Made by a program: the position numbers and the translations under genes. Positions 1 to 7,668 of a DNA stretch of 7,668 bases are shown here, piece by piece. The stretch is from a virus (taxonomy: Duplodnaviria; Heunggongvirae; Uroviricota; Caudoviricetes): IMG/VR virus record IMGVR_UViG_2651869696_000012; one strand, 5' to 3'. How positions within the stretch are numbered: position 1 is the first letter of the stretch; each line of letters begins with the position of its first letter. The notes beneath the pieces are model-generated. The model was not told where the DNA came from and searched no databases. It worked only from the letters and a program-made list of their open reading frames with translations.

Positions 1-20
1 AACTTTTAAGATAAAAGATA

Positions 21-40
21 GATATCCCAGAAAGGATATC
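21..40. promoter_or_regulatory. Perfect inverted repeat GATATCC-n6-GGATATC upstream of the methyltransferase gene; candidate operator
   Basis: Read directly: gatatcc (21-27), spacer cagaaa, ggatatc (34-40). Lies about 80 bp upstream of the ATG at 121. Function is inferred only. Confidence 0.25.
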
Positions 41-120
41 CGTTTAGAAAACCTATTAAGTATCTCTTAAAAGAGAGCAAACCTTGTCAAGAGTGATTGC
101 AATAAAAATTTTTATTTCTT

Positions 121-783
121 ATGTCAATTGAGTGTATTTTAATCGGGAAGCATCATGGGGGTTCTGATTACTGGAGAACTCCATTTTTGTTATTTAAGAA
201 CTTACACCGTGAATTTATTTTCAGTCTGGATGGTGCTGCAACTGAGCATGACGCATTGTTGCCACGGTTCACCGATGATATCCACAATCAGTCATGGGTT
301 GGTGAAAGGGTATTCTGTAACCCACCATACAGCGACACTAAAACATTCCTCGTAAAAGCATCTGAAGCAGATTTAGCGGTATTCCTGATGCCCTACCGAC
401 CCCAAACCATATACTGGCTTAAGCACATCTTCACAAACCTGCTTTGCCATGAAATCCGTATTCTTCATCGTGCAGTTAAATGCCTTCCACCAGCAGGGCA
501 TAACGGGCTTGTTATTCGTTCACCGTTTCCAAGTGCAGTCGTTGTTTTTAAAAAAGAACCACGTAAGCATGAAATTACACAGATGGTTTGCTGTGCTGAC
601 ACGCTATTACCGTTAACCATCATTAACCGTGGTGGACTAAGAGGAAGACCCACCATTTACCCACCTGAGACGCTCGACAGCTTCACAAAGCTATACAGGC
701 AAGGAAAACCCATTAAGTGCATTGCAGATGCTCTCAGAATGCCTCTGAGCACGTCATACAGGATTGCTCAAAGGTTGAGCTAA
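121..783 (+). CDS. Phage-type N6-adenine DNA methyltransferase (Dam family) with C-terminal Hin/resolvase-like HTH domain
   Basis: 220-aa ORF. N-terminal part has W-R-T-P near the N-terminus, FSLDGAAT, and the catalytic NPPY tetrapeptide (..VFCNPPYSD..), the pattern I recall for the phage Dam family (Pfam PF05869). The C-terminal ~45 aa (GRPTIYPPETLDSFTKLYRQGKPIKCIADALRMPLSTSYRIAQRL) aligns by eye with the Hin invertase HTH (GRP...G.P...iA......ST.YR). No Shine-Dalgarno before the ATG (AT-rich leader); first in-frame start after the stop at 103-105. Confidence 0.8.
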   Translation: MSIECILIGKHHGGSDYWRTPFLLFKNLHREFIFSLDGAATEHDALLPRFTDDIHNQSWVGERVFCNPPYSDTKTFLVKASEADLAVFLMPYRPQTIYWLKHIFTNLLCHEIRILHRAVKCLPPAGHNGLVIRSPFPSAVVVFKKEPRKHEITQMVCCADTLLPLTIINRGGLRGRPTIYPPETLDSFTKLYRQGKPIKCIADALRMPLSTSYRIAQRLS

Positions 784-831
784 AATTCTCATATAGAGCA
801 CTGATTATGAGAGTGTTAAAGAGGCGATTTC

Positions 832-851
832 CCCTGTCTGGGGTTATTCGC
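832..851. repeat. Copy 1 of a ~20-bp motif CCCTKTCTGGGGTTAT(T)CGC containing a short CCC/GGG hairpin
   Basis: cccctgtctggggttattcgc read directly; a second copy lies ~170 bp downstream (1001-1019). Confidence 0.5.
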
Positions 852-1000
852 TTTTTACTGGAAGGGTTATTTTACAGAGGTTTTTCAAACCCCCTCAATA
901 ATAGAAACGAGCAACAAACGAAGAGCGAGAAATAAAATATTGAGACTGGTGAACGGGGCCTGTAAAGATTGTTTAAGAAGTCGGTTAAGAAGGTGGCTCT

Positions 1001-1019
1001 CCCTTTCTGGGGTTATCGC
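1001..1019. repeat. Copy 2 of the CCCTKTCTGGGGTTATCGC motif
   Basis: ccctttctggggttatcgc; shares the TCTGGGGTTAT core with the copy at 832-851. Confidence 0.5.
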
Positions 1020-1048
1020 CCTGCATCTTAGTGAGTCCAGGAAGTTCT

Positions 1049-1220
1049 CTGTGAAGGGTCTTGTCAGTCCTTTATATTGGGTGATTACAACTCTTTGAAA
1101 AATAAGAACTTTTAGAAATCACTGTTAAGGTTACAGAGTTAACTGTGAAGAGGCTTGTCAGTTCTCTATATATGGCTAATTACAACTTATTGAAAAATAA
1201 GAACTTTTAGAAGTTACTGT
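1049..1220. repeat. Two tandem ~78-bp imperfect direct repeats (units 1049-1125 and 1143-1220) separated by 17 bp
   Basis: Unit 1 ctgtgaagggtcttgtcagtcctttatattgggtgattacaactctttgaaaaataagaacttttagaaatcactgt; unit 2 ctgtgaagaggcttgtcagttctctatatatggctaattacaacttattgaaaaataagaacttttagaagttactgt. Roughly 80-85% identical by eye. Each starts CTGTGAAG and ends ACTGT. Confidence 0.7.
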
Positions 1221-1302
1221 CAGAGAGGTGAACACTTGATAGATACAGCTTTCCGGTTATGTCAAGCTGTTTTTTAATAGATAGCACAAAATGCTAAAGA
1301 TG

Positions 1303-1331
1303 CCCCTATACCATCTCGTACAGGGGGTTTT
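1303..1331 (+). terminator. Candidate intrinsic terminator (possibly bidirectional)
   Basis: Stem cccctatac (1303-1311) / gtacagggg (1318-1326) with one mismatch, 6-nt loop, then GTTTT. Sits between the repeat region and the 3' end of the minus-strand small ORF. Confidence 0.4.
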
Positions 1332-1340
1332 GAAGGGAGT

Positions 1341-1517
1341 TTAACGGGGTTCTGTGTGGTCATTATCCTTAAGGTCAAGCGTCCATGTACGACCGAACAG
1401 TTTAAATACAACAAGCACTCTGACGAGGATGTAGCGGAGTATCAGACCTGCAATCAGCCCAACACCTCCACCAGCCCATACATCAGGTGACCCCAGTTCA
1501 GGAGGGAGATTTACCAT
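1341..1517 (-). CDS. Hypothetical small membrane protein (58 aa from the internal Met; the track ORF extends to 1586)
   Basis: Minus-strand ORF with a hydrophobic segment (GGVGLIAGLILRYILVRVLVVF). The Met at 1515-1517 is preceded on the minus strand by AAGGA with a 6-nt spacer; the upstream Met at 1586 has no SD and lies inside repeat R1. It is the only minus-strand candidate and is locally GC-richer, so it could be spurious. Confidence 0.3.
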   Translation of the reverse strand: MVNLPPELGSPDVWAGGGVGLIAGLILRYILVRVLVVFKLFGRTWTLDLKDNDHTEPR

Positions 1518-1532
1518 TAGTTTTCCTTGTAA

Positions 1533-1629
1533 GACGCTTTCAATCGCATTCTGACACAAAAAAGTACCTGACCTTATAGTTGACATGAAGAGGCCGTTTA
1601 ACTCGTTACAGAGCGATTGAAGAAGTCTG
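1533..1629. repeat. R1: ~97-bp element with ~20-bp terminal inverted repeats; copy 1 of 2
   Basis: Left arm gacgctttcaatcgcattctgacacaaaaaa, variable core, right arm gtttaactcgttacagagcgattgaagaagtctg. Left arm and reverse complement of right arm match (GACgCTtTCAATCGC..TCTG vs GACttCTTCAATCGCTCTG). Second copy at 3200-3320. Confidence 0.7.
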
Positions 1630-1765
1630 TGTGCAATGCAAAAACCATGCGGCCATTCTCATGGTTGATTCGGTTTATCGAATAAACCTCATAGCCACGC
1701 CTCATATTTTACTCTCCCCATAGAACCATTATACCACAGATGTTAATGAAATGTTAAAAAAATGC

Positions 1766-1806
1766 TTGACATTAGTCTTTGAAAATGCTAGCATTGCCTA
1801 TATAAG
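1766..1806 (+). promoter_or_regulatory. Sigma70-like promoter region for the four-gene cassette (two overlapping candidate configurations)
   Basis: TTGACA (1766-1771), 17-bp spacer, extended -10 TGcTAGCAT (1786-1794); alternatively TTGAAA (1779-1784), 16 bp, TATAAG (1801-1806). A-rich tract immediately upstream (1745-1763) resembles an UP element. First gene starts at 1845. Confidence 0.45.
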
Positions 1807-1844
1807 TTAACAGAGAATTAACAATTATAAGGACTAGCTTATGA

Positions 1845-2402
1845 ATGAACGACAGAGAATTTAGAGCGATGCTTCAGGCATCAAGAGAACGCAACAAGCA
1901 CAACTCCTACAGCTACACAGACACCCCCACCAGCCACGAAGTACCCAAGTTCACCAGAGCAGAGCGCAAAGGCATTGACGAAGTAATTCGGGCAATTACA
2001 CCGAGGGAGCGTTATATGTCAATCAGAAAGAGCACGAAGAACACTATCAAGAATTATTTGAATAACTTTGATTCTTACGAGCAGTCATCAAGCTTGCTTG
2101 ATGATATTTTTATTGGATTCTGTAGAAGTGAAGGTCACCCGAAATACAACAAAAAACTATTTTATCTTCTAAAGAATCTTGATGAAATTAACGCAGCCAG
2201 CGTGACAAATTATCTTCAGCGACAAGCAACCAGACTTAGTTATGAATTACCAAGCGATAAATATTGTGCATTGCTTGCTGTAATGTGTGCAAAGCTAATT
2301 GGTGTTGTTGAACATCATGTTGCCGTTGGGAATATTGAACCAATGGAAAACGAGCAACCAGATTTCGAGTTTGACCCGTATTTAGTTACAGAGGAATTTT
2401 AA
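1845..2402 (+). CDS. Hypothetical protein (185 aa) with acidic C-terminal tail
   Basis: ORF with AAGGA 11 nt upstream; first gene of a translationally coupled cassette; C-terminus ..ENEQPDFEFDPYLVTEEF. No family recognised. Confidence 0.7.
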   Translation: MNDREFRAMLQASRERNKHNSYSYTDTPTSHEVPKFTRAERKGIDEVIRAITPRERYMSIRKSTKNTIKNYLNNFDSYEQSSSLLDDIFIGFCRSEGHPKYNKKLFYLLKNLDEINAASVTNYLQRQATRLSYELPSDKYCALLAVMCAKLIGVVEHHVAVGNIEPMENEQPDFEFDPYLVTEEF

Positions 2403-2403
2403 A

Positions 2404-2685
2404 ATGAAAAACAGACACACTCTAACCCGTATTTCAGAGGAAGCTTTTAATGAGCTTACCAGAATTAAACGAGCGACTAACTTGCCTCATCAAACTGTTA
2501 TGCAACTTGCAATTGCTAAAGAAGTTACTGAGTCGGATTTACTTAAATATCCAGTCTCTAAAGGTCGCAAACACATCCGAATTGCTCAGGACGCTTTAGA
2601 TACTTTGAAGGCACTTAACAGCTTTAAAATTGATATTGCCCGACTATTGAGTATTAAGATTCACAAGTTAGCGATGGAGGTTTAA
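2404..2685 (+). CDS. Putative ribbon-helix-helix-like DNA-binding protein (93 aa)
   Basis: GAGG 9 nt upstream (inside the TTACAGAGG motif). N-terminus NRHTLTRISEEAFNELTRIKRATNLPHQTVMQLAIAKEV fits the beta-strand / helix A / turn / helix B pattern of CopG/Arc-type RHH proteins; assignment by pattern only. Confidence 0.65.
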   Translation: MKNRHTLTRISEEAFNELTRIKRATNLPHQTVMQLAIAKEVTESDLLKYPVSKGRKHIRIAQDALDTLKALNSFKIDIARLLSIKIHKLAMEV

Positions 2686-2900
2686 TGCTATGCGTTACCT
2701 TTGAATACCACACGGATAAAATGATTCGCTACATCTCCGACCTCCTGATTAAAGGAAACGGATTCGGTGACATCCATAACTCAAGAGATATTTTCATTAA
2801 AGCCATTGGCCCAAATGAAGTACTGAAAACAGCAGTTACACCGGAATGGTTTGAGCGTCACAAGATTGAATTAGGTTATTGGGGTGAGGAGGTTTTATGA
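2685..2900 (+). CDS. Hypothetical protein (71 aa)
   Basis: Start overlaps upstream stop (TAATG); GGAGG 4 nt upstream; no recognisable family. Confidence 0.6.
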   Translation: MLCVTFEYHTDKMIRYISDLLIKGNGFGDIHNSRDIFIKAIGPNEVLKTAVTPEWFERHKIELGYWGEEVL

Positions 2901-3184
2901 AACCTTGGCATGAAGATGTTAGACGATATTTTACAGAACACCTTATCTATGATGAATCCAGTGATTCCCTGTGCTGGTCTGATGGAGAGTCAGTCACGAT
3001 AAATACCGACGACTACGGCAACAAAACATTTAATATAGGCCGATATACTTTCTACGTGAAATATGTTGTCTGGTTCCTTTATCATGGCTATCAATCCAAT
3101 AAGCAAATTATCCATCGAAATGGTAACAGAGCCGATACCAGACCAAAAAATCTTATGCAAGTCCGAGACTTTAAGAGAAATTAG
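2897..3184 (+). CDS. Small HNH-type (HNH_3-like) endonuclease-fold protein, apparently degenerate
   Basis: ATGA overlap with upstream gene; GAGGAGG 4 nt upstream. Sequence ..IYDESSDSLCW..GNKTF..YTFYVKYVVWFLYHGYQSNKQIIHRNGNRADTRPKNLMQV follows the architecture of phage HNH proteins (YDPETG..W ... HRLAW ... DHIDGN..NN...NLR) but with substitutions at usually conserved positions (HRL to KYV; DNR/NN to DT). Confidence 0.7.
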   Translation: MKPWHEDVRRYFTEHLIYDESSDSLCWSDGESVTINTDDYGNKTFNIGRYTFYVKYVVWFLYHGYQSNKQIIHRNGNRADTRPKNLMQVRDFKRN

Positions 3185-3199
3185 AAAAATAGCTTCTCA

Positions 3200-3320
3200 G
3201 ACGCTCTCAATCGCATTCTAACGCAAAAAACTATCTTATTTTAGGGTGGGTAATACCACTGTACAGGCTACCCCTGAAAAAGACTGTTTAGCTCGTTACA
3301 GAGCGATTGAGGAGGTCTGG
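3200..3320. repeat. R2: ~121-bp element with ~20-bp terminal inverted repeats; copy 2 of 2
   Basis: Left arm gacgctctcaatcgcattctaacgcaaaaaa, 55-bp variable core, right arm gtttagctcgttacagagcgattgaggaggtctgg. Same arms as R1 at 1533-1629 with a different, longer core. Immediately after the cassette stop (3184) and 20 bp before the next gene. Confidence 0.7.
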
Positions 3321-3340
3321 TAAAAAGGAGATTTTAAGAA

Positions 3341-3670
3341 ATGAGAGAATTAAACTTTCCATTACAAATTATGCTTGATATCGACACAGTAAATATGATT
3401 CAACACTTCGTTGATTCCGGTGTATCAATTGACTTTGACAGGCTGTTAAAGCTGATGGCTGATAATGCAGAAAACATCTCTGACTTTATTCAGTCGGTGG
3501 AGTTTAACGAGCCTCGAATGATGCTACCAATTACCGACTCAAACATGAAAAGATTGGTTATCGAGCAAACGAACAAACACAGTATTTCCCCAGAGCAATT
3601 TTTGAAAGGTGCTGTGACAATCCTGCACAGCGATAATATTCTGGTGACGGATTCTATGAGGGTTCACTAA
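3341..3670 (+). CDS. Hypothetical acidic protein (109 aa)
   Basis: AAGGAG 10 nt upstream; Asp/Glu-rich; no recognisable family. Confidence 0.7.
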   Translation: MRELNFPLQIMLDIDTVNMIQHFVDSGVSIDFDRLLKLMADNAENISDFIQSVEFNEPRMMLPITDSNMKRLVIEQTNKHSISPEQFLKGAVTILHSDNILVTDSMRVH

Positions 3671-3747
3671 TGGGATTGATAATTGCTTGGACAGCTTTAG
3701 GTTTATTTGTTGGTTGCTGGGTGGGCAACGCGGTAAATAAAAATTGA
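3670..3747 (+). CDS. Candidate 25-aa single-pass hydrophobic peptide (MGLIIAWTALGLFVGCWVGNAVNKN)
   Basis: ATG at 3670-3672 overlaps the TAA of the upstream gene (TAATG coupling); stop TGA at 3745-3747. Below the ORF-track cutoff; hydrophobic core with polar C-terminus. Confidence 0.3.
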   Translation: MGLIIAWTALGLFVGCWVGNAVNKN

Positions 3748-3771
3748 TGTTACCAATCTGTTAAAAGGCTG

Positions 3772-3800
3772 TTGACAAATAATCTTAAGCATGACATAAT
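3772..3800 (+). promoter_or_regulatory. Sigma70-like promoter
   Basis: TTGACA (3772-3777), 17-bp spacer, CATAAT (3795-3800); AT-rich upstream. Confidence 0.5.
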
Positions 3801-3806
3801 TGTATA

Positions 3807-3998
3807 TATAGGAAGAGCAATTTTTCCTAAAATCATATTTTCAATAATCCGATGGATGGATATTCTGAGTTGGAAAGGTGCAATGCTTTTCGTCATGGCC
3901 TTTCAGTTTAGTCTGAGAGGTCATCTCAAAAAGTGCTTAATCATTCATTATTGAACCCTTACAGCTTTGCCCTAACTCATGATTAGGGCGTTTTCTTT
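3807..3998 (+). ncRNA. Candidate small RNA (~190 nt) between the promoter and an intrinsic terminator
   Basis: No ORF with an RBS in this unit (the 60-aa track ORF starts inside the -35 box). Internal 12-bp stem ATGGCCTTTCAG (3895-3906) / CTGAGAGGTCAT (3913-3924) with a 6-nt loop; its two non-Watson-Crick positions are G-U wobbles only in the + strand RNA. Ends at the terminator at 3969-3998. Coordinates approximate. Confidence 0.3.
3969..3998 (+). terminator. Intrinsic terminator
   Basis: Stem gccctaa (3969-3975) / ttagggc (3983-3989), 7-nt loop, followed by gTTTTCTTT. Confidence 0.6.
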
Positions 3999-4067
3999 AA
4001 GAGTTTTTAAACAGAGCTTTTAAAGAAAGTTTTTCCTGAAACTTCGTTAACGTTAAAGCAAACCTTC

Positions 4068-4101
4068 AAAGCCCTTCACAGATTATGTTTAGGGCTTTTT
4101 T
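4068..4101 (+). terminator. Second candidate intrinsic terminator
   Basis: aaagccct (4068-4075) / agggcttt (4091-4098) with a 15-nt loop, followed by a T run to 4101. Loop is large, so lower confidence. Confidence 0.45.
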
Positions 4102-4218
4102 CAGCTTTTAAAAAGCATACTTGGCAAACGCCTTTTAAGTCTCTTCTAAGTTCGTAGGCTGTCAGGTGTGCTTTTTAAAAACTGAAACATAAATTATCTT
4201 AGAAGAGGAAAAATAATA

Positions 4219-4923
4219 ATGTCTATCCGTGATGAACATGAAATGATTATCGAAAACAAACCAAGTGCACTTGATATTCACGAATTAAGTTTGCGTGAAT
4301 CTTTTGATAGAGCTTGGCGGGAATCACACGAAGTAAATAAAGGTCCATATATTCCACCAGAACCACTCGAGATTCCAAGAGTTGAAATTGATTTTTCGAT
4401 GAATGAGGAATGTGAGCTTGATTTGAAACTGAAGCTGCAACGCCGATATTTCCAAGCTATTAAAGACTCTCAAGAAGCAATGAGAAGTGTTTACGAGAAA
4501 ATTCAGTCCAAGCTTGAAGACGAAATCGACGAAATGGCTATTTTGATGGAGCTTCAAACCAATTCTTATGCTTATTTCTCTCGACTAGACCGTGACGGTT
4601 GGGGGTATGACCCTGTAGAGATTGGTAAAGTGATTGCAGATTTACCAGAAGGTCAAAGGGTTATTCGTACGGAAAGGGCTATCAGAGCGCCACATCAACT
4701 GTCTCTAATTGTTGCTGATAAATCACAAGCTGAGCTTGAAGAAATTGCCAAAGAGAAACTGATGAAAGCAAGAGAAAATGAGATTAATTTGCTGAAATCA
4801 AGACTGGCTAAGCTGATTAGTGACCATCAAGCGCTGGCTAAGGAGTACCGTCAAGAGTTGGCACAGATTATCAGCTTCAATGATTTTCTGAGTGTTCCAC
4901 GAGAATTTAGCAAGGCTGTTTAA
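4219..4923 (+). CDS. Hypothetical glutamate-rich, probably helical/coiled-coil protein (234 aa)
   Basis: GAGG 10 nt upstream; long charged helical-looking stretches (..AELEEIAKEKLMKARENEINLLKSRLAKLISDHQALAKEYRQELAQ..); no recognisable family. Confidence 0.75.
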   Translation: MSIRDEHEMIIENKPSALDIHELSLRESFDRAWRESHEVNKGPYIPPEPLEIPRVEIDFSMNEECELDLKLKLQRRYFQAIKDSQEAMRSVYEKIQSKLEDEIDEMAILMELQTNSYAYFSRLDRDGWGYDPVEIGKVIADLPEGQRVIRTERAIRAPHQLSLIVADKSQAELEEIAKEKLMKARENEINLLKSRLAKLISDHQALAKEYRQELAQIISFNDFLSVPREFSKAV

Positions 4924-4945
4924 TTATGCATATGTGAGGTGATGA

Positions 4946-5161
4946 ATGATTGATTTAACAGAACGCTATGAAACTATTAAGTCTGTTTGTGAAAACTTAA
5001 AGTTACAAACTAAGCCAGCCTTAAGAATTAAAACCAAACATCAAATTATCACCTCACGCAAACCAAAAACACGCAAGATTCCAAAGTGGTGTATCGACCG
5101 TATCCCTTCCGATGCTCAAATTATAGGTGAAACGGAACTACATTATCTTGTCAGGCATTAA
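4946..5161 (+). CDS. Hypothetical small basic protein (71 aa)
   Basis: TGAGG 6 nt upstream; Lys/Arg-rich (..RIKTKHQIITSRKPKTRKIPKW..); follows the upstream gene after 22 bp. Confidence 0.6.
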   Translation: MIDLTERYETIKSVCENLKLQTKPALRIKTKHQIITSRKPKTRKIPKWCIDRIPSDAQIIGETELHYLVRH

Positions 5162-5210
5162 AAAAGATTGGTTGGGTGTATGAGATAGGTTCTATCGAAT
5201 CTATAACACG

Positions 5211-5252
5211 GGGAGAGATTATCGATATTATTCGGTAGTTTCTCCCTTTTTT
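5211..5252 (+). terminator. Candidate intrinsic terminator after the 71-aa gene
   Basis: Stem gggagaga (5211-5218) / tttctccc (5239-5246), one G-U, 20-nt loop, followed by TTTTTT (5247-5252). Confidence 0.5.
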
Positions 5253-5260
5253 GTATGTGT

Positions 5261-5330
5261 GCTACGTGAAATCTTCTGAACAGATATACCCACCAAAAAT
5301 TATTTTTTACGTAGCTCACGCTTAACAGAG
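5261..5330. repeat. Repeat A: 70-bp element directly upstream of the tape-measure-like gene; copy 1 of 2
   Basis: gctacgtgaaatcttctgaacagatatacccaccaaaaattattttttacgtagctcacgcttaacagag. Contains inverted repeat GCTACGT...ACGTAGC and ends in TTAACAGAG, followed by the SD GAGGTGA. Second copy at 7406-7475. Confidence 0.7.
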
Positions 5331-5344
5331 GTGAAATATGAACA

Positions 5345-7393
5345 ATGGCACAATTTAAAGTTGATAGTTTTATCGTTGAGCTAGGCTTCAATGAAAACGT
5401 TATTAAGAGCTTGCAAAGAGTTGAAAAGGCAGCTTTGCAGTCAGCACAAAGAATTGAAAAGAACCTTAACAAAGGCTTCAAGATTAATACCAAGCAACTT
5501 GACAGCAATCTGACAAGTTCTTTGAAGTCAATGGAAGGAAAAATTAATAAGACCTTTGACCGTCTGGAAGCTAGAGCAAGAAACACAAAAGTTTTCCGTT
5601 TCACAAGTCAGGTTAACGATGCTGTTAATCCTCCAAAACAACCGAGACAGCCACGAATTAGCGGCAACAGAGCAATCACAGCAGCTTATTCAGCTAATAT
5701 GTCTAAGTTAAAGGGCTTTGACCCTATTTTGCAGAAATACATCAAATCTCAGTTTTACGGGCTATCTGCTAAAGCCGGTTCAATGGATTCTTCAAAATTC
5801 AATGAGAAGCTGTCTCAGTTAAATGCTTCAGTCAGAGAAGCAATTGCTAAAGCTAAAGGTCATACATCCACCAGCATTAATGGTGACAGAGCAGCTAGCA
5901 GCCTTGATAACCTGTCTTCGGCAGCAGTCAAAACAGCAGGTGCATTTATCTCAATGCAGGCTGTATTAGCCAGTTATCAGAAGATTATGGAAGTTGGTTT
6001 ACAGCGTGCAAGTGCTGAGCGTTCAATTGATTTCGTATTTGATAAAGATGCAGGTCAGGTAAAAGAGTTCACAAAGTCATTAGCTCAAACAACGGGTTTA
6101 GATATCGCTGAACTGCAATCACAGTTTGCTGGTTTTGGTGCTTCAGCTAAAGAATCTATGGGTATTCAGGGTTCTGAAGAACTTTTTAAAAATATGATTG
6201 GCTATTCTCGTTTAATGGGTCGAAGTGAAGAAGAGATTAAGCGAGCATTAACAGCGCTATCGCAGATGGCTGGTAAGGGTCAGGTGATGGCTGAGGAGCT
6301 GAAAGGTCAATTAGCTGAAGCTGTTCCTGGTATGGTTCAGGTATTCGCTAAAGCAACCGGAAAGACTGAACAGGAATTATTTGATGCCATGAAGAAGGGG
6401 GCTTTAAAATCTGCCGATACTCTTCAGAAGGTCACTCAGGAACTGAATAAACAAATCACCGCTAAAGGTGGCTGGAAAGCCATTTCAGAAAGTACACAGG
6501 CACAACTAGGGAACTTGAAAAACTCTTGGAATACCACGCTTGACAGTATTTTCAGAGGTTCTGAAGATGGTTTACAGGACTTCACAAGAAGCTTAACAAC
6601 GCTTTTAAATAGTCTTGGTGGGAGTGGTAAAAGTCTTGGTGAATCTCTTGGTAGTCTCATGACTTCTATGTCAAGTGGTGTGGATTCATTGACTGATATC
6701 AGCTACAGGGTAAGAGCATTCTTTGATGAGGTGACATTAGCTTACCGTGGTTTAACCGATGAACAAAAGAAAGTAGTTGATGCTTTAGGTTCTGGCTTGA
6801 TTAATAGTTTAAAAGTCTTGGCTGGTGTTATTGCTGTGAATAAAGTTGTTGGTGTAACCAGAAGTATTTACGGGCTTATGACTGCTATCACAAGATTAGG
6901 TCAGGTTGCTGATACTACAGCGGATAACGTGAATAGAAAGAATGGGAAACCATCAAGACTGAATCTTGGGAATATGCTATTAGCTGGTAGCGCTCTCTAT
7001 GCAGGTTATGAAAGATTAGCCTCTACACCTGAACGAATGGAAGCACAAGCTAAATTACCAGAGTTAGCTAAAGAATCTGGACTTAAGCCAGTATTTACTA
7101 TGGACGATGTGAAAGGTTGGTTTAATAGTGCAGCTATGAATCTTGCTAACTTCCAGCATCCAGAATTAAACAACATTAAGCAAGATGCGGCATTAACGAA
7201 TACGGATATCCAAAGCCTGAGAGATGAAATTAGTGCTTTGAGCAAACGTATTCAGGAGCCTGTGAAAGTTTCACTTGGTGGTGAAGTTGCTATTAAACCA
7301 GATGAAACCAGCTTTATGACATTTAACAGCAGTCTGTACGACCAATACGCAGAAGCTACGCTATTAAGTTCATCATTCCCAGAAGATGATTGA
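5345..7393 (+). CDS. Tape-measure-domain protein (682 aa)
   Basis: Long ORF with GAGGTGA 11 nt upstream. Central region ..RALTALSQMAGKGQVMAEELKGQLAEAVPGMVQVFAKATGKTEQELFDAMKKGALKSADTLQKV.. matches, as I recall it, the conserved tape-measure domain of lambda-H-like proteins (TIGR02675-type). Gly/Ser/Ala/Lys-rich with hydrophobic segments (..LAGVIAVNKVVGV..). Short for a classical tape measure and lacks adjacent tail genes. Confidence 0.8.
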   Translation: MAQFKVDSFIVELGFNENVIKSLQRVEKAALQSAQRIEKNLNKGFKINTKQLDSNLTSSLKSMEGKINKTFDRLEARARNTKVFRFTSQVNDAVNPPKQPRQPRISGNRAITAAYSANMSKLKGFDPILQKYIKSQFYGLSAKAGSMDSSKFNEKLSQLNASVREAIAKAKGHTSTSINGDRAASSLDNLSSAAVKTAGAFISMQAVLASYQKIMEVGLQRASAERSIDFVFDKDAGQVKEFTKSLAQTTGLDIAELQSQFAGFGASAKESMGIQGSEELFKNMIGYSRLMGRSEEEIKRALTALSQMAGKGQVMAEELKGQLAEAVPGMVQVFAKATGKTEQELFDAMKKGALKSADTLQKVTQELNKQITAKGGWKAISESTQAQLGNLKNSWNTTLDSIFRGSEDGLQDFTRSLTTLLNSLGGSGKSLGESLGSLMTSMSSGVDSLTDISYRVRAFFDEVTLAYRGLTDEQKKVVDALGSGLINSLKVLAGVIAVNKVVGVTRSIYGLMTAITRLGQVADTTADNVNRKNGKPSRLNLGNMLLAGSALYAGYERLASTPERMEAQAKLPELAKESGLKPVFTMDDVKGWFNSAAMNLANFQHPELNNIKQDAALTNTDIQSLRDEISALSKRIQEPVKVSLGGEVAIKPDETSFMTFNSSLYDQYAEATLLSSSFPEDD

Positions 7394-7405
7394 TAATAGT
7401 CGAAT

Positions 7406-7475
7406 GCTACGTGAAATCTCTTGAACAGATATACCCACTGAAAAATAGAATTTACGTACAACACGCTTAACAGAG
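7406..7475. repeat. Repeat B: second copy of the 70-bp element, directly downstream of the tape-measure-like gene
   Basis: gctacgtgaaatctcttgaacagatatacccactgaaaaatagaatttacgtacaacacgcttaacagag; about 85% identical to copy A by eye; same length and same TTAACAGAG 3' end. Confidence 0.7.
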
Positions 7476-7489
7476 AAAATACTTAAATA

Positions 7490-7533
7490 TCAAAGGCTTG
7501 GTTAAAAATGATTAAAATACACTAAGCCTTTGA
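7490..7533. other. Perfect 10-bp inverted repeat TCAAAGGCTT-n24-AAGCCTTTGA (hairpin or operator)
   Basis: Read directly; flanked by a short direct repeat ATCAAAGG (7488-7495, 7535-7542). No T run on the + strand; the - strand is T-rich after it. Confidence 0.4.
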
Positions 7534-7668
7534 AATCAAAGGAGAATTTAATGATTTACACTAATCAGCTTCGGGTGATGCTGCCAACTTACTGATTTAG
7601 TGTATGATGGTGTTTTTGAGGTGCTCCAGTGGCTTCTGTTTCTATCAGCTGTCCCTCCTGTTCAGCTA

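What the first reader, a model, noticed from the sequence alone, without database searches (positions are those of the whole stretch)
872..7475. Recurrent TTA(A)CAGAG motif near gene starts and inside both repeat families
GTTACAGAG or TTAACAGAG occurs at 872-879, 1130-1138, 1605-1613 (R1), 1807-1815 (just after the cassette promoter), 2385-2393 (18 bp before the RHH gene start), 3295-3303 (R2), 5322-5330 (repeat A) and 7467-7475 (repeat B), with a TTAAACAGAG variant at 4007-4016. That is far more than expected by chance for an 8-9-mer in under 8 kb. It may be a regulator binding site, a phage-specific promoter element, or an RNA processing or translation-initiation signal; several copies overlap SD-like AGAGG.
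Basis: seen in the sequence. Interest (0 to 1): 0.45.

Follow-up and report, generated by a model that had tools for sequence, protein, structure and literature searches.

The report
Recurrent intergenic motif in satellite-like island
A short DNA word, TTA(A)CAGAG, really does recur in almost every gap between genes of this E. coli mobile island, which looks like a parasite of Felix O1-type phages; it is most likely a binding site for a small regulator, but this is unproven and the word is not kept in distant relatives.

Summary
There are five TTACAGAG, three TTAACAGAG and one TTAAACAGAG, all on the + strand, and eight of the nine lie in the 26% of the window that is non-coding. An unbiased scan picks this family as the most over-represented word. 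It stays significant in intergenic DNA after paralogous copies are masked (5 copies against 0.15 expected; 0 of 150 simulations).

It is not a general translation signal: only 2 of 9 copies act as Shine-Dalgarno sequences. It is not a fixed-distance promoter hexamer. It is not a Felix O1 signal (11 observed, 8.3 expected).

Four copies sit in paralogous regulatory cassettes (R1/R2, A/B). One of these (5322) arose where an inserted cassette meets an older ribosome-binding site.

Within the E. coli lineage the motif is somewhat better conserved than its flanks (0.96 against 0.88). Islands at 65-69% protein identity mostly lack it.

The window is part of an ~11.5 kb island with a serine integrase, found in 528 of 5426 complete E. 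coli genomes. It carries Felix O1-type tape-measure and distal-tail genes. My best guess (confidence about 0.33) is that the motif is an asymmetric operator for the island's TraY/AvtR-like single-chain tandem-RHH protein.

The parts
872..879 (+). Motif copy TTACAGAG, about 15 nt after the terminator-like hairpin that follows the Dam-HTH gene (822-857).
   Evidence: The block T[TC]ACAGAG-N3-TTTCAA is kept in three divergent flank contexts: the window, L004 5876 and L015 6944.
1131..1138 (+). Motif copy TTACAGAG at the end of unit 1 of a 95-bp tandem repeat (1049-1220). Unit 2 ends in a degenerate copy, TTACTGTCAGAG, at 1214-1225.
   Evidence: Exact in 12 of 14 islands; two read TTTCAGAG.
1606..1613 (+). 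Motif copy TTACAGAG in the 3' arm of cassette R1 (1532-1629), within the conserved core ctcgTTACAGAGcgattga.
   Evidence: R1 is a paralog of R2. Variants TTACAGGG (L002) and CTACAGAG (Salmonella L040) occur.
1807..1815 (+). Motif copy TTAACAGAG, 12 nt downstream of the -10 box of the sigma-70-like promoter at 1766-1794 (TTGACA-17-TAGCAT) and 29 nt before ATG 1845. It is followed by a second TTAACA (TTAACAGAGAATTAACA).
   Evidence: TTAACAG is conserved but the last 2-3 bases vary (AGAG, AGGA, AGAA; L015 reads TTAACAAGAG).
2386..2393 (+). Motif copy TTACAGAG inside the last codons of the 185-aa ORF. Its AGAGGA is the SD of the 93-aa gene (ATG 2404).
   Evidence: Replaced by ATTTTGGAGG in 5 of 16 islands.
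3296..3303 (+). Motif copy TTACAGAG forming the 3' strand of the long R2 hairpin (3198-3319), 45 nt before ATG 3341.
   Evidence: RNA fold -47.8 kcal/mol, z = -5.7. The hairpin is conserved, with 5 compensatory pairs. The orthologous 8-mer in the divergent islands is TTATAATG or TTAGAATG.
4007..4016 (+). Variant TTAAACAGAG in the apical part of a hairpin (3993-4027) just after the terminator at 3968-3990 of a putative small-RNA unit (promoter 3772-3800).
   Evidence: z = -3.7. The stem covaries but the loop sequence is not kept in L011, L015 or L016.
5322..5330 (+). Motif copy TTAACAGAG at the 3' end of cassette A (about 5257-5330). AGAGGTG is the SD of the tape-measure gene.
   Evidence: Cassette A is an insertion polymorphism between the terminator (5210-5247) and the pre-existing SD. 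Five of 13 filled islands read TTAAAGAGG.
7467..7475 (+). Motif copy TTAACAGAG at the 3' end of cassette B (about 7400-7475), 84 nt before the Dit-like gene (ATG 7551).
   Evidence: Divergent islands read TTATCAAGA or TTAACATAA here.
5261..5315 (.). Inverted repeat GCTACGTGA (5261-5269) / TTACGTAGC (5307-5315) bracketing weak -35/-10-like hexamers (TGAACA 5277-5282, TATTTT 5301-5306). Cassette B has the same arrangement (7406-7414 / 7452-7459).
   Evidence: The 9-bp arms are conserved in E. coli, Citrobacter and other islands although the spacer changes. This is better conserved than the motif itself.
2404..2685 (+). 93-aa single-chain tandem ribbon-helix-helix protein, the candidate binder of the asymmetric motif.
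   Evidence: AF2 pLDDT 90.4 with beta-alpha-alpha twice. Foldseek top hits are the chains I take from memory to be TraY in F-plasmid relaxosome entries (hit descriptions name only the entry), DndE and AvtR. A homolog at 33-35% identity sits at the same position in alternative-module islands.

Best explanation
TTA(A)CAGAG (core TTA(A)CAG) is a DNA-level, asymmetric protein-binding site. It sits in or at the 3' edge of short regulatory cassettes (promoter plus hairpin units) that head the island's transcription units.

The most likely binder is the island's own 93-aa single-chain tandem ribbon-helix-helix protein. In such a protein the two different beta-strands would form one sheet that reads one asymmetric site of about 8 bp. 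Binding just downstream of the weak promoters (+5 to +26) would repress or co-ordinate the operons: the regulator's own operon, the 109-aa gene, the tape-measure gene and the Dit gene. This would hold until a Felix O1-type helper phage infects.

Shown here: the enrichment, the intergenic and strand bias, the cassette anatomy, the protein fold and the helper link. Inferred: who binds the motif and what binding does.
For: The motif is the top over-represented family in intergenic DNA even after paralogs are masked. Every sizeable intergenic gap holds one or two copies.

Motif columns are more conserved than the +-40 nt flanks across 20 islands, 0.957 against 0.878 on average.

The 872-type site keeps T[TC]ACAGAG-N3-TTTCAA in three diverged contexts.

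An unrelated cassette at the same position upstream of the 107-aa gene carries TTACAGAG on the opposite strand. It does so in E. coli islands and in the divergent L015. This argues for DNA-level rather than RNA-level recognition.

The motif lies 5-26 nt downstream of predicted -10 boxes (P1766, cassettes A/B, R1), a typical operator position.

The 93-aa protein is a confident tandem RHH and a core gene of the island family.

From my own knowledge, RHH sheets read units of 7-9 bp (MetJ metbox 8 bp, omega heptads 7 bp), and I recall F TraY binding asymmetric sites as a monomer.

Five of the nine copies lie in the exchangeable module that encodes this protein, and the alternative module has none.
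Against: There are no binding data.

In islands at 65-69% identity the orthologous positions read differently: TTATCAAGA, TTAACATGA, TTAACATAA, TTAACAAGAG, and TTATAATG in the R2 stem. L015 has an 87%-identical RHH with identical beta-strands, yet keeps only 2-3 copies.

Several E. coli islands tolerate changes: TTAAAGAGG in 5 of 13, and site 2386 lost in 5 of 16.

The right-hand copies (R2, 4007, A, B) persist in islands that carry the other RHH type (L024).

Each copy also has a local rationale of its own: an SD, a hairpin stem, or a cassette junction.

Over the whole window with paralogs masked, the enrichment is not significant.
Confidence: 0.33

Rival explanations
1. There is no single function. 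The recurrence is a composite of three things: cassette paralogy (R1, R2, a left-arm copy and an int-internal copy; A and B; the tandem unit), local constraints that happen to overlap (SD AGAGG, hairpin stems, a cassette-to-RBS junction), and a purine-rich coding-strand bias.
For: The 5322 copy is created where an inserted cassette (ending ...CGCTTAAC) meets a pre-existing SD. The 2386 copy is the end of a coding sequence plus an SD. The R2 copy is one strand of a covarying stem whose ortholog reads TTATAATG. The 4007 copy is a variable hairpin loop. R2, cassette B and left-arm copy j share TAGCTC..TTA(A)CAGAG, which suggests deeper paralogy. The CAGAG/CTCTG asymmetry of 22:4 is expected from composition, 17:6.7. 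The motif is absent as a recurrent word in L011 and L016. Over the whole window with paralogs masked the corrected P is about 0.25.
Against: In intergenic DNA with paralogs masked, 5 copies remain against 0.15 expected, and no simulation reaches this. The motif is better conserved than its flanks. The same 8-mer appears on the other strand in a non-homologous cassette at the same position.
Confidence: 0.27
2. The motif is the island's dispersed version of a helper-phage DNA word. The core CTTAACAG is the reverse complement of the CTGTTAAG iteron, which is phased at about 10 bp and fills the terminal-repeat region of Felixounaviruses. A helper protein that binds those iterons (an end-binding, packaging or replication factor) would also touch the island's sites. 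This would couple island expression, replication or packaging to infection.
For: The Felix O1 non-coding gap at 12.3-13.9 kb holds about 25 CTTGTTA/CTGTTAAG copies, 10- to 80-fold denser than the rest of the genome. That gap contains the 581-bp direct terminal repeat annotated in phage Pr103Blw. The island's ORF-less left arm has five CTTAACAG copies plus other related words. A segment of about 130 nt in that arm is 74-75% identical to Felixounavirus genome-end DNA, with E = 2e-11. TTATAGAGCG occurs in tandem in Felix O1 and TTACAGAGCG in the R cassettes.
Against: Only the three TTAACAGAG copies contain the full iteron, and the five TTACAGAG copies do not. The window copies are solitary, not phased arrays. 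In Felix O1, CTTAACAG outside the terminal array is not intergenic (1 of 13). The full motif is not enriched there (11 against 8.3).
Confidence: 0.15
3. The motif is an RNA-level element in 5' leaders or intercistronic RNA: a processing site, a binding site for a translational regulator, or an SD-enhancing sequence.
For: All nine window copies are on the transcribed strand, downstream of predicted promoters and upstream of genes. Two overlap genuine SDs. R2 is a very stable long hairpin of the kind RNase III cuts.
Against: Distance to start codons varies from 16 to 84 nt, and four copies have no gene downstream. The copies share no common secondary-structure context (stem, loop or unpaired). 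A conserved copy lies on the opposite strand in the alternative cassette. Rfam finds nothing.
Confidence: 0.12
4. The motif is the core element (-10-like or start-site element) of promoters read by a helper-modified RNA polymerase.
For: Copies follow terminators at 872, 4007 and cassette A, where new transcription must start. One intergenic Felix O1 copy lies right after a terminator-like hairpin (seen in the sequence) upstream of the terminase operon. The timing control of Felix O1 transcription is unknown (PMC3185647).
Against: At 2386 and 5322 a start downstream of the motif would remove the SD. There is no enrichment in Felix O1 and only 2 of 11 copies there are non-coding. There is no constant partner element or spacing.
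Confidence: 0.08

Closest known systems
Operators of ribbon-helix-helix regulators (MetJ 8-bp metboxes, omega-protein 7-bp heptads on pSM19035, F-plasmid TraY sby sites)
   Same: A short 7-9 bp unit recurs at several promoters of one replicon and is read by an RHH beta-sheet. As I recall from my own knowledge, TraY and AvtR are single-chain tandem RHH proteins that read asymmetric sites. The island's 93-aa protein has this fold.
   Different: Classical RHH operators come as two or more adjacent units, whereas here most copies are solitary. Binding is untested. The motif is not retained in distant islands that keep the protein.
Mobile regulatory cassettes of T4-type phages (PeSL: promoter plus stem-loop units at module borders)
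   Same: Repeats of 70-120 bp with promoter-like hexamers and a stem-loop sit between gene modules. They show presence/absence polymorphism: cassette A is inserted in about 60% of islands. R1/R2 and A/B are paralogs.
   Different: There is no sequence relation to PeSLs. The element here is an integrated island, not a T4-type phage. This comparison rests on my own knowledge of that literature.
PLE satellites of Vibrio cholerae phage ICP1
   Same: Both have a large serine integrase and a virulent myovirus as apparent helper. Both encode their own tape-measure and baseplate-proximal protein: PLE11 builds chimeric, shorter tails (PMC12987554), and here the TMP is 682 aa against 742 aa in Felix O1 while Dit is 73% identical. 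Both have a large ORF-less arm, a smaller ORF-less gap with a predicted small RNA, and an HNH nuclease (PMC9410903).
   Different: There is no protein homology to PLE genes. The island is smaller (about 11.5 kb), with a different host and helper, and no replication initiator is recognisable in this module type. Mobilisation is untested. No PLE promoter or operator motif is described for comparison.
Shared late-promoter site of P2/P4 (TGT-N12-ACA bound by Ogr/Delta)
   Same: A short cis-element is repeated in front of several transcription units of a satellite and ties them to one trans-factor.
   Different: That site is a dyad at a fixed position (-55) and is present in the helper genome too. 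TTA(A)CAGAG is asymmetric, variably placed and absent as a signal from Felix O1. This comparison is from my own knowledge.

Membership tests
Shine-Dalgarno / translation-initiation signal | Purine-rich anti-SD complement 5-13 nt upstream of the start codon of a real gene | tested here: not met
   True for 2386 (ATG 2404) and 5322 (ATG 5338/5345) only. The other seven copies lie 29-84 nt from a start or have no gene downstream.
Promoter core element (sigma-70-like or phage-specific) | Fixed spacing to a partner hexamer and to the transcription start | tested here: not met
   The motif lies +5 to +26 downstream of predicted -10 boxes, with no constant partner. TTAACA read as a -35 has no -10 at 16-18 nt. 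Real start sites cannot be tested here.
Felix O1-type (helper) regulatory motif | Enriched in the helper genome, preferentially intergenic and co-oriented with genes | tested here: not met
   11 copies against 8.3 +- 2.7 expected. 2 of 11 are non-coding, against 9% non-coding DNA.
Felixounavirus terminal-repeat iteron (CTGTTAAG / CTTAACAG) | The same 8-mer | tested here: inconclusive
   The three TTAACAGAG copies contain TTAACAG (two contain CTTAACAG). The five TTACAGAG copies lack one A.
Felixounavirus terminal-repeat iteron (CTGTTAAG / CTTAACAG) | Tandem arrays phased at about 10 bp | tested here: not met
   Window copies are solitary. Only the island's left arm, outside the window, shows array-like density.
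RHH operator | Unit of 7-9 bp close to promoters of the replicon that encodes the RHH protein | tested here: met
   The motif is 8-10 bp, sits next to P1766, R1 and cassettes A/B, and a tandem-RHH gene lies at 2404-2685.
RHH operator | Specific binding by the protein | not testable with these tools
   Needs EMSA, footprinting or ChIP.
RHH operator | Site and protein co-vary or are co-retained across relatives | tested here: inconclusive
   The alternative-module region has no copy. However, L015 has the same beta-strands yet few copies, and L024 has the other RHH type yet keeps four copies.
Mobile promoter/stem-loop cassettes | Short paralogous repeats at gene-module borders with a stem-loop, promoter-like hexamers and presence/absence polymorphism | tested here: met
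   A/B are 85 nt and 94% identical in L002. R1/R2 are paralogs. Cassette A is present or absent among islands. The inverted repeat GCTACGTGA/TCACGTAGC is conserved.
Known RNA families (Rfam) | Covariance-model match | tested here: not met
   Only two sub-threshold hits, neither at a motif copy.
Type III restriction-site strand bias (CAGAG, StyLTI-type) | One-strand bias of the 5-mer beyond what composition predicts | tested here: not met
   CAGAG 22 and CTCTG 4, against 17.2 and 6.7 expected from an order-3 model.
PLE-like phage satellite (for the island that holds the motif) | Integrase-bounded island with helper-derived virion genes but no capsid, terminase or replication set of its own | tested here: met
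   The island has a large serine recombinase, and TMP and Dit are homologous to Felix O1 ORF67/68. Of the island proteins I compared, only these two and the HNH have Felix O1 homologs. It occupies at least three att sites.
PLE-like phage satellite (for the island that holds the motif) | Helper-dependent excision, replication and transduction | not testable with these tools
   Needs infection experiments.

The most novel reading that the evidence does not exclude
TTA(A)CAGAG is the operator code of a TraY/AvtR-like single-chain RHH master regulator. That regulator silences a previously undescribed, widespread E. coli, Salmonella and Citrobacter family of PLE-like satellites that parasitise virulent Felix O1-type phages. 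Helper infection would lift the repression so that the island expresses its own tape-measure and distal-tail proteins, builds chimeric tails about 60 residues shorter in tape-measure length, and is packaged through a mimic of the helper's terminal-repeat boundary.
Probability: 0.18. Interest if true: 0.72.

Novelty: new member of a known kind. Interest (0 to 1): 0.42.

Why it matters
If the motif is a real operator, it gives a direct handle on how this island is switched on. The handle consists of one small protein, one 8-9 bp word, and a few promoters to mutate.

The island is common: it is in about 10% of complete E. coli genomes. It looks like an enterobacterial counterpart of the Vibrio PLE satellites, aimed at Felix O1-type phages, which are widely used for typing and therapy. 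A regulatory code for it would help predict when such islands fire and interfere with those phages.

If the motif is only a by-product of cassette duplication, it is an ordinary feature of mosaic mobile DNA.

Tried and rejected
1. Helper promoter motif. From memory I expected a Felix O1 late-promoter word (CTAAATACCCC-like) in cassettes A/B, but Felix O1 has no such word. The Felix O1 paper reports only sigma-70-like promoters and unknown timing control.

2. Similarity of cassettes A, B, R1 and R2 to sequenced phages. There is none. Only the first 135 nt of the TMP gene and the Dit start match Felixounaviruses. The inverted repeat GCTACGTGA/TCACGTAGC is not used in Felix O1.

3. Invertible segment. 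The small recombinase gene lies in either orientation in different islands, but the segments are not homologous, so this is mosaic replacement and not inversion.

4. Resolvase/Hin-type half-site, or a target of the Dam-HTH_7 fusion. The resemblance is only TTAnCA, and islands without the Dam gene keep the motif. I dropped this as untestable.

5. Type III restriction avoidance. Rejected.

6. Small-RNA seed pairing. The + strand has a single CTCTGT (1046), and the putative sRNA from P3772 has no anti-motif.

7. SD plus small ORFs downstream of each copy. Only tiny ORFs of 15-24 codons with weak starts follow the copies, which is not convincing.

8. R 3' arm as a relic of the integrase gene. A 13-mer, TTACAGAGCGATT, is shared with the int gene (antisense), but similarity fades beyond it. 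Left as a note.

9. A recurrent alternative word in the islands with the other RHH type. None was found beyond RBS-like strings.

10. A first look-elsewhere test with an over-loose family definition gave P = 0.11-0.73. I replaced it with a p-value-based test.

11. Defence-system and NCBIfam libraries gave no function for the island proteins beyond an orphan methylase and the TMP.

12. Literature searches found no described Felixounavirus satellite.

Full report
**1. The observation**

The window holds five TTACAGAG (872, 1131, 1606, 2386, 3296), three TTAACAGAG (1807, 5322, 7467) and one TTAAACAGAG (4007). All are on the + strand. Shuffles expect 0.35 and 0.13 copies of the two main words. An order-3 Markov model expects 0.96 for the family. 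Eight of nine copies lie in the 2002 non-coding bases (P = 1.6e-4).

A reader can always find some repeated word, so I scanned every '8-mer with one flexible base run' family and compared the best p-value with simulations.
- TTA{1,3}CAGAG is itself the best family.
- In intergenic DNA it is unmatched in 150 simulations. This holds after masking R1, cassette A and the second tandem unit (5 copies against 0.15 expected).
- Over the whole window with paralogs masked it is not significant (38 of 150).

The feature is real, and it is an intergenic feature.

**2. Where the window comes from**

Bases 7574-7668 are an IS1 end that interrupts the last gene. The rest matches a chromosomal island in 528 of 5426 complete E. 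coli genomes at 85-91% identity. It has no match among plasmids or sequenced phages.

Full copies are about 11.5 kb and contain, in order:
- an ORF-less left arm of about 1.6 kb;
- a Dam-type methylase fused to a resolvase-type HTH;
- a small minus-strand ORF;
- genes of 185, 93 and 71 aa and an HNH gene;
- a 109-aa gene;
- a second ORF-less gap of about 550 bp;
- genes of 234 and 71 aa;
- a tape-measure gene and a Dit-like gene;
- a large serine recombinase.

The island is inserted in yecE, between yciI and tonB, or next to a locus encoding an FMN-reductase-family protein and YccJ. Relatives occur in Salmonella and Citrobacter.

The Dit-like protein is 73% identical to the Felix O1 gene just after its tape-measure gene. 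The tape-measure protein is 28-29% identical over its full length (682 against 742 aa). Its first 135 nt are about 80% identical at the DNA level.

A segment of about 130 nt in the left arm is 74-75% identical to non-coding DNA at Felixounavirus genome ends (E = 2e-11). That region spans the right boundary of the 581-bp direct terminal repeat annotated in phage Pr103Blw.

This anatomy parallels the Vibrio PLE satellites of the virulent phage ICP1. PLEs also carry a large serine integrase, ORF-less gaps, an HNH nuclease and their own tape-measure protein, which makes chimeric shorter tails (PMC12987554, PMC9410903). I found no paper describing a Felixounavirus satellite.

**3. Anatomy of the nine copies**

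- 872 follows the terminator of the methylase gene.
- 1131 ends unit 1 of a 95-bp tandem repeat. Unit 2 ends in a degenerate copy.
- 1606 and 3296 sit in paralogous cassettes R1 and R2, which share the core ctcgTTACAGAGcgattga.
- R2 folds into a 120-nt hairpin (-47.8 kcal/mol, z = -5.7). The motif is its 3' strand. Five pairs covary across islands.
- 1807 lies 12 nt after the -10 box of a good sigma-70-like promoter.
- 2386 is the end of the 185-aa ORF, and its AGAGGA is the SD of the next gene.
- 4007 is the top of a hairpin that follows the terminator of a putative small-RNA unit (promoter 3772-3800).
- 5322 and 7467 end the paralogous cassettes A and B.

Cassettes A and B contain a 9-bp inverted repeat, GCTACGTGA...TCACGTAGC, that brackets weak promoter-like hexamers. 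Cassette A is an insertion. Some islands go straight from the terminator to gaggtgaaatATG, while others carry the cassette in between. The 5322 motif is therefore the cassette end fused to an older ribosome-binding site, and 5 of 13 filled islands read TTAAAGAGG there.

**4. Conservation**

Across 20 islands, motif columns are 0.957 identical on average and the +-40 nt flanks 0.878. The R-type, 1131 and B copies are the best kept. Copies 1807, 2386 and 5322 vary.

The 872-type site keeps T[TC]ACAGAG-N3-TTTCAA in three diverged contexts.

Where R2 is replaced by a non-homologous cassette, that cassette carries TTACAGAG on the opposite strand about 70 nt upstream of the same gene. This holds in E. 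coli islands and in the divergent L015.

In islands at 65-69% identity the motif is not recurrent. The orthologous positions read TTATCAAGA, TTAACATGA, TTAACATAA, TTAACAAGAG and, in the R2 stem, TTATAATG. The inverted repeat of cassette B and the hairpins are kept there, so those are the more durable features.

**5. What the motif is not**

- It is not a general SD (2 of 9 copies).
- It is not a fixed-distance promoter element.
- It is not a known RNA family.
- It is not a restriction-avoidance bias.
- It is not a Felix O1 signal. Felix O1 has 11 copies against 8.3 expected, and only 2 are non-coding.

The related word CTTAACAG is the reverse complement of the ~10-bp-phased iteron that fills the Felixounavirus terminal repeat. 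It is frequent in the island's left arm. Outside the terminal array in Felix O1, however, it is not intergenic (1 of 13 copies).

**6. A candidate reader**

The 93-aa protein is a confident single-chain tandem RHH: pLDDT 90.4, with beta-alpha-alpha twice. Its best structural matches are chains of the F-plasmid relaxosome that I take to be TraY, then DndE, then the archaeal-virus regulator AvtR. It is conserved across the family. Islands with the alternative left module have a homolog at 33-35% identity at the same position.

A tandem RHH makes one asymmetric beta-sheet and would read one asymmetric site of about 8 bp. That fits solitary, oriented 8-9 bp copies placed just downstream of promoters. 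This is an inference from general knowledge of RHH proteins, not a result.

Two facts weaken it. L015 keeps the protein but few copies. L024 has the other RHH type but keeps four copies.

**7. Verdict**

The motif is real and intergenic-specific. It is partly inflated by paralogous cassettes and is specific to this lineage.

| Reading | Confidence |
|---|---|
| DNA operator, probably for the tandem RHH | about 0.33 |
| No unitary function | about 0.27 |
| Link to a helper iteron-binding factor | about 0.15 |
| RNA-level signal | about 0.12 |
| Promoter core | about 0.08 |

The surrounding island is the more striking object: a likely PLE-like satellite of Felix O1-type phages.

Noticed in passing
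window 1-7573 (whole island seen in L001 18200-29700 and L002 3378-14760): The window is part of an ~11.5 kb island bounded by a large serine recombinase, present in 528 of 5426 complete E. coli genomes and in Salmonella and Citrobacter, at three or more att sites. It carries Felix O1-type TMP and Dit genes but no capsid, terminase or obvious replication genes. It is probably an undescribed PLE-like satellite of Felixounaviruses.
   Followed up: partly
L002 4097-4231 (island left arm, just upstream of the window): A non-coding segment is 74-75% identical (E = 2e-11) to Felixounavirus genome-end DNA spanning the right boundary of the 581-bp direct terminal repeat. It includes an exact 29-mer, ATCATGAGGTAGATTCTACCGAATCAACT, shared with phage DE7. 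This may mimic the helper's packaging or cleavage site.
   Followed up: partly
window 487-494, 1468-1475, 1927-1934, 5868-5875 (all - strand): There are four Chi sites (GCTGGTGG), all in one orientation, against 0.12 expected (0 of 200 shuffles). CCACCAGC and TCCACCAG are the most over-represented 8-mers in the window. This could protect a linear replication or packaging intermediate from RecBCD.
   Followed up: partly
window 7574-7668: An IS1 terminal sequence interrupts the Dit-like gene 23 nt after its ATG (7551) and ends the contig, so this copy of the island is probably defective.
   Followed up: yes
window 3772-3990 and 3993-4190: A strong sigma-70-like promoter (TTGACA-17-CATAAT with an extended TG) is followed about 165 nt later by an intrinsic terminator. 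Two more hairpins and a 27-nt inverted repeat come before the 234-aa gene. This looks like a small RNA or an attenuated leader. The promoter is conserved in divergent islands. PLEs have a predicted sRNA in a similar ORF-less gap.
   Followed up: partly
window 5261-5315 and 7406-7459: The 9-bp inverted repeat GCTACGTGA / T(C/T)ACGTAGC brackets weak promoter-like hexamers upstream of the TMP and Dit genes. It is conserved in E. coli, Citrobacter and other islands despite spacer turnover. It is a better candidate operator pair than the motif under study.
   Followed up: partly
window 121-783: The Dam-family N6-adenine methyltransferase carries a C-terminal resolvase-type HTH_7 domain (residues 175-215), an unusual fusion that could target methylation to specific sites.
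   Followed up: no
window 5344-5478: Only the first 135 nt of the tape-measure gene are about 80% identical at the DNA level to Felixounavirus TMP genes. The rest is 28-29% identical at the protein level, and the protein is 60 aa shorter than Felix O1's. This suggests a conserved N-terminal interaction module on an otherwise replaced ruler.
   Followed up: partly
L020 10725, L002 13952 (+ strand, inside the serine recombinase gene, antisense): The 13-mer TTACAGAGCGATT of cassettes R1 and R2 recurs inside the integrase gene of yecE-type islands. It is either another site or a trace of the cassette's origin.
   Followed up: partly
Felix O1 (L009) 12300-13930; Pr103Blw L018/L019: The Felixounavirus terminal-repeat region is packed with about 25 CTTGTTA(G)/CTGTTAAG words at a period of about 10 bp, 10- to 80-fold denser than the rest of the genome. 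I found no description of this in the papers read.
   Followed up: partly
window 1049-1220: A 95-bp tandem repeat (1.8 copies, 85% match) lies in the non-coding gap between the methylase gene and the minus-strand small ORF. It may be an origin or iteron region of this module type. The divergent island L015 has a single unit.
   Followed up: no
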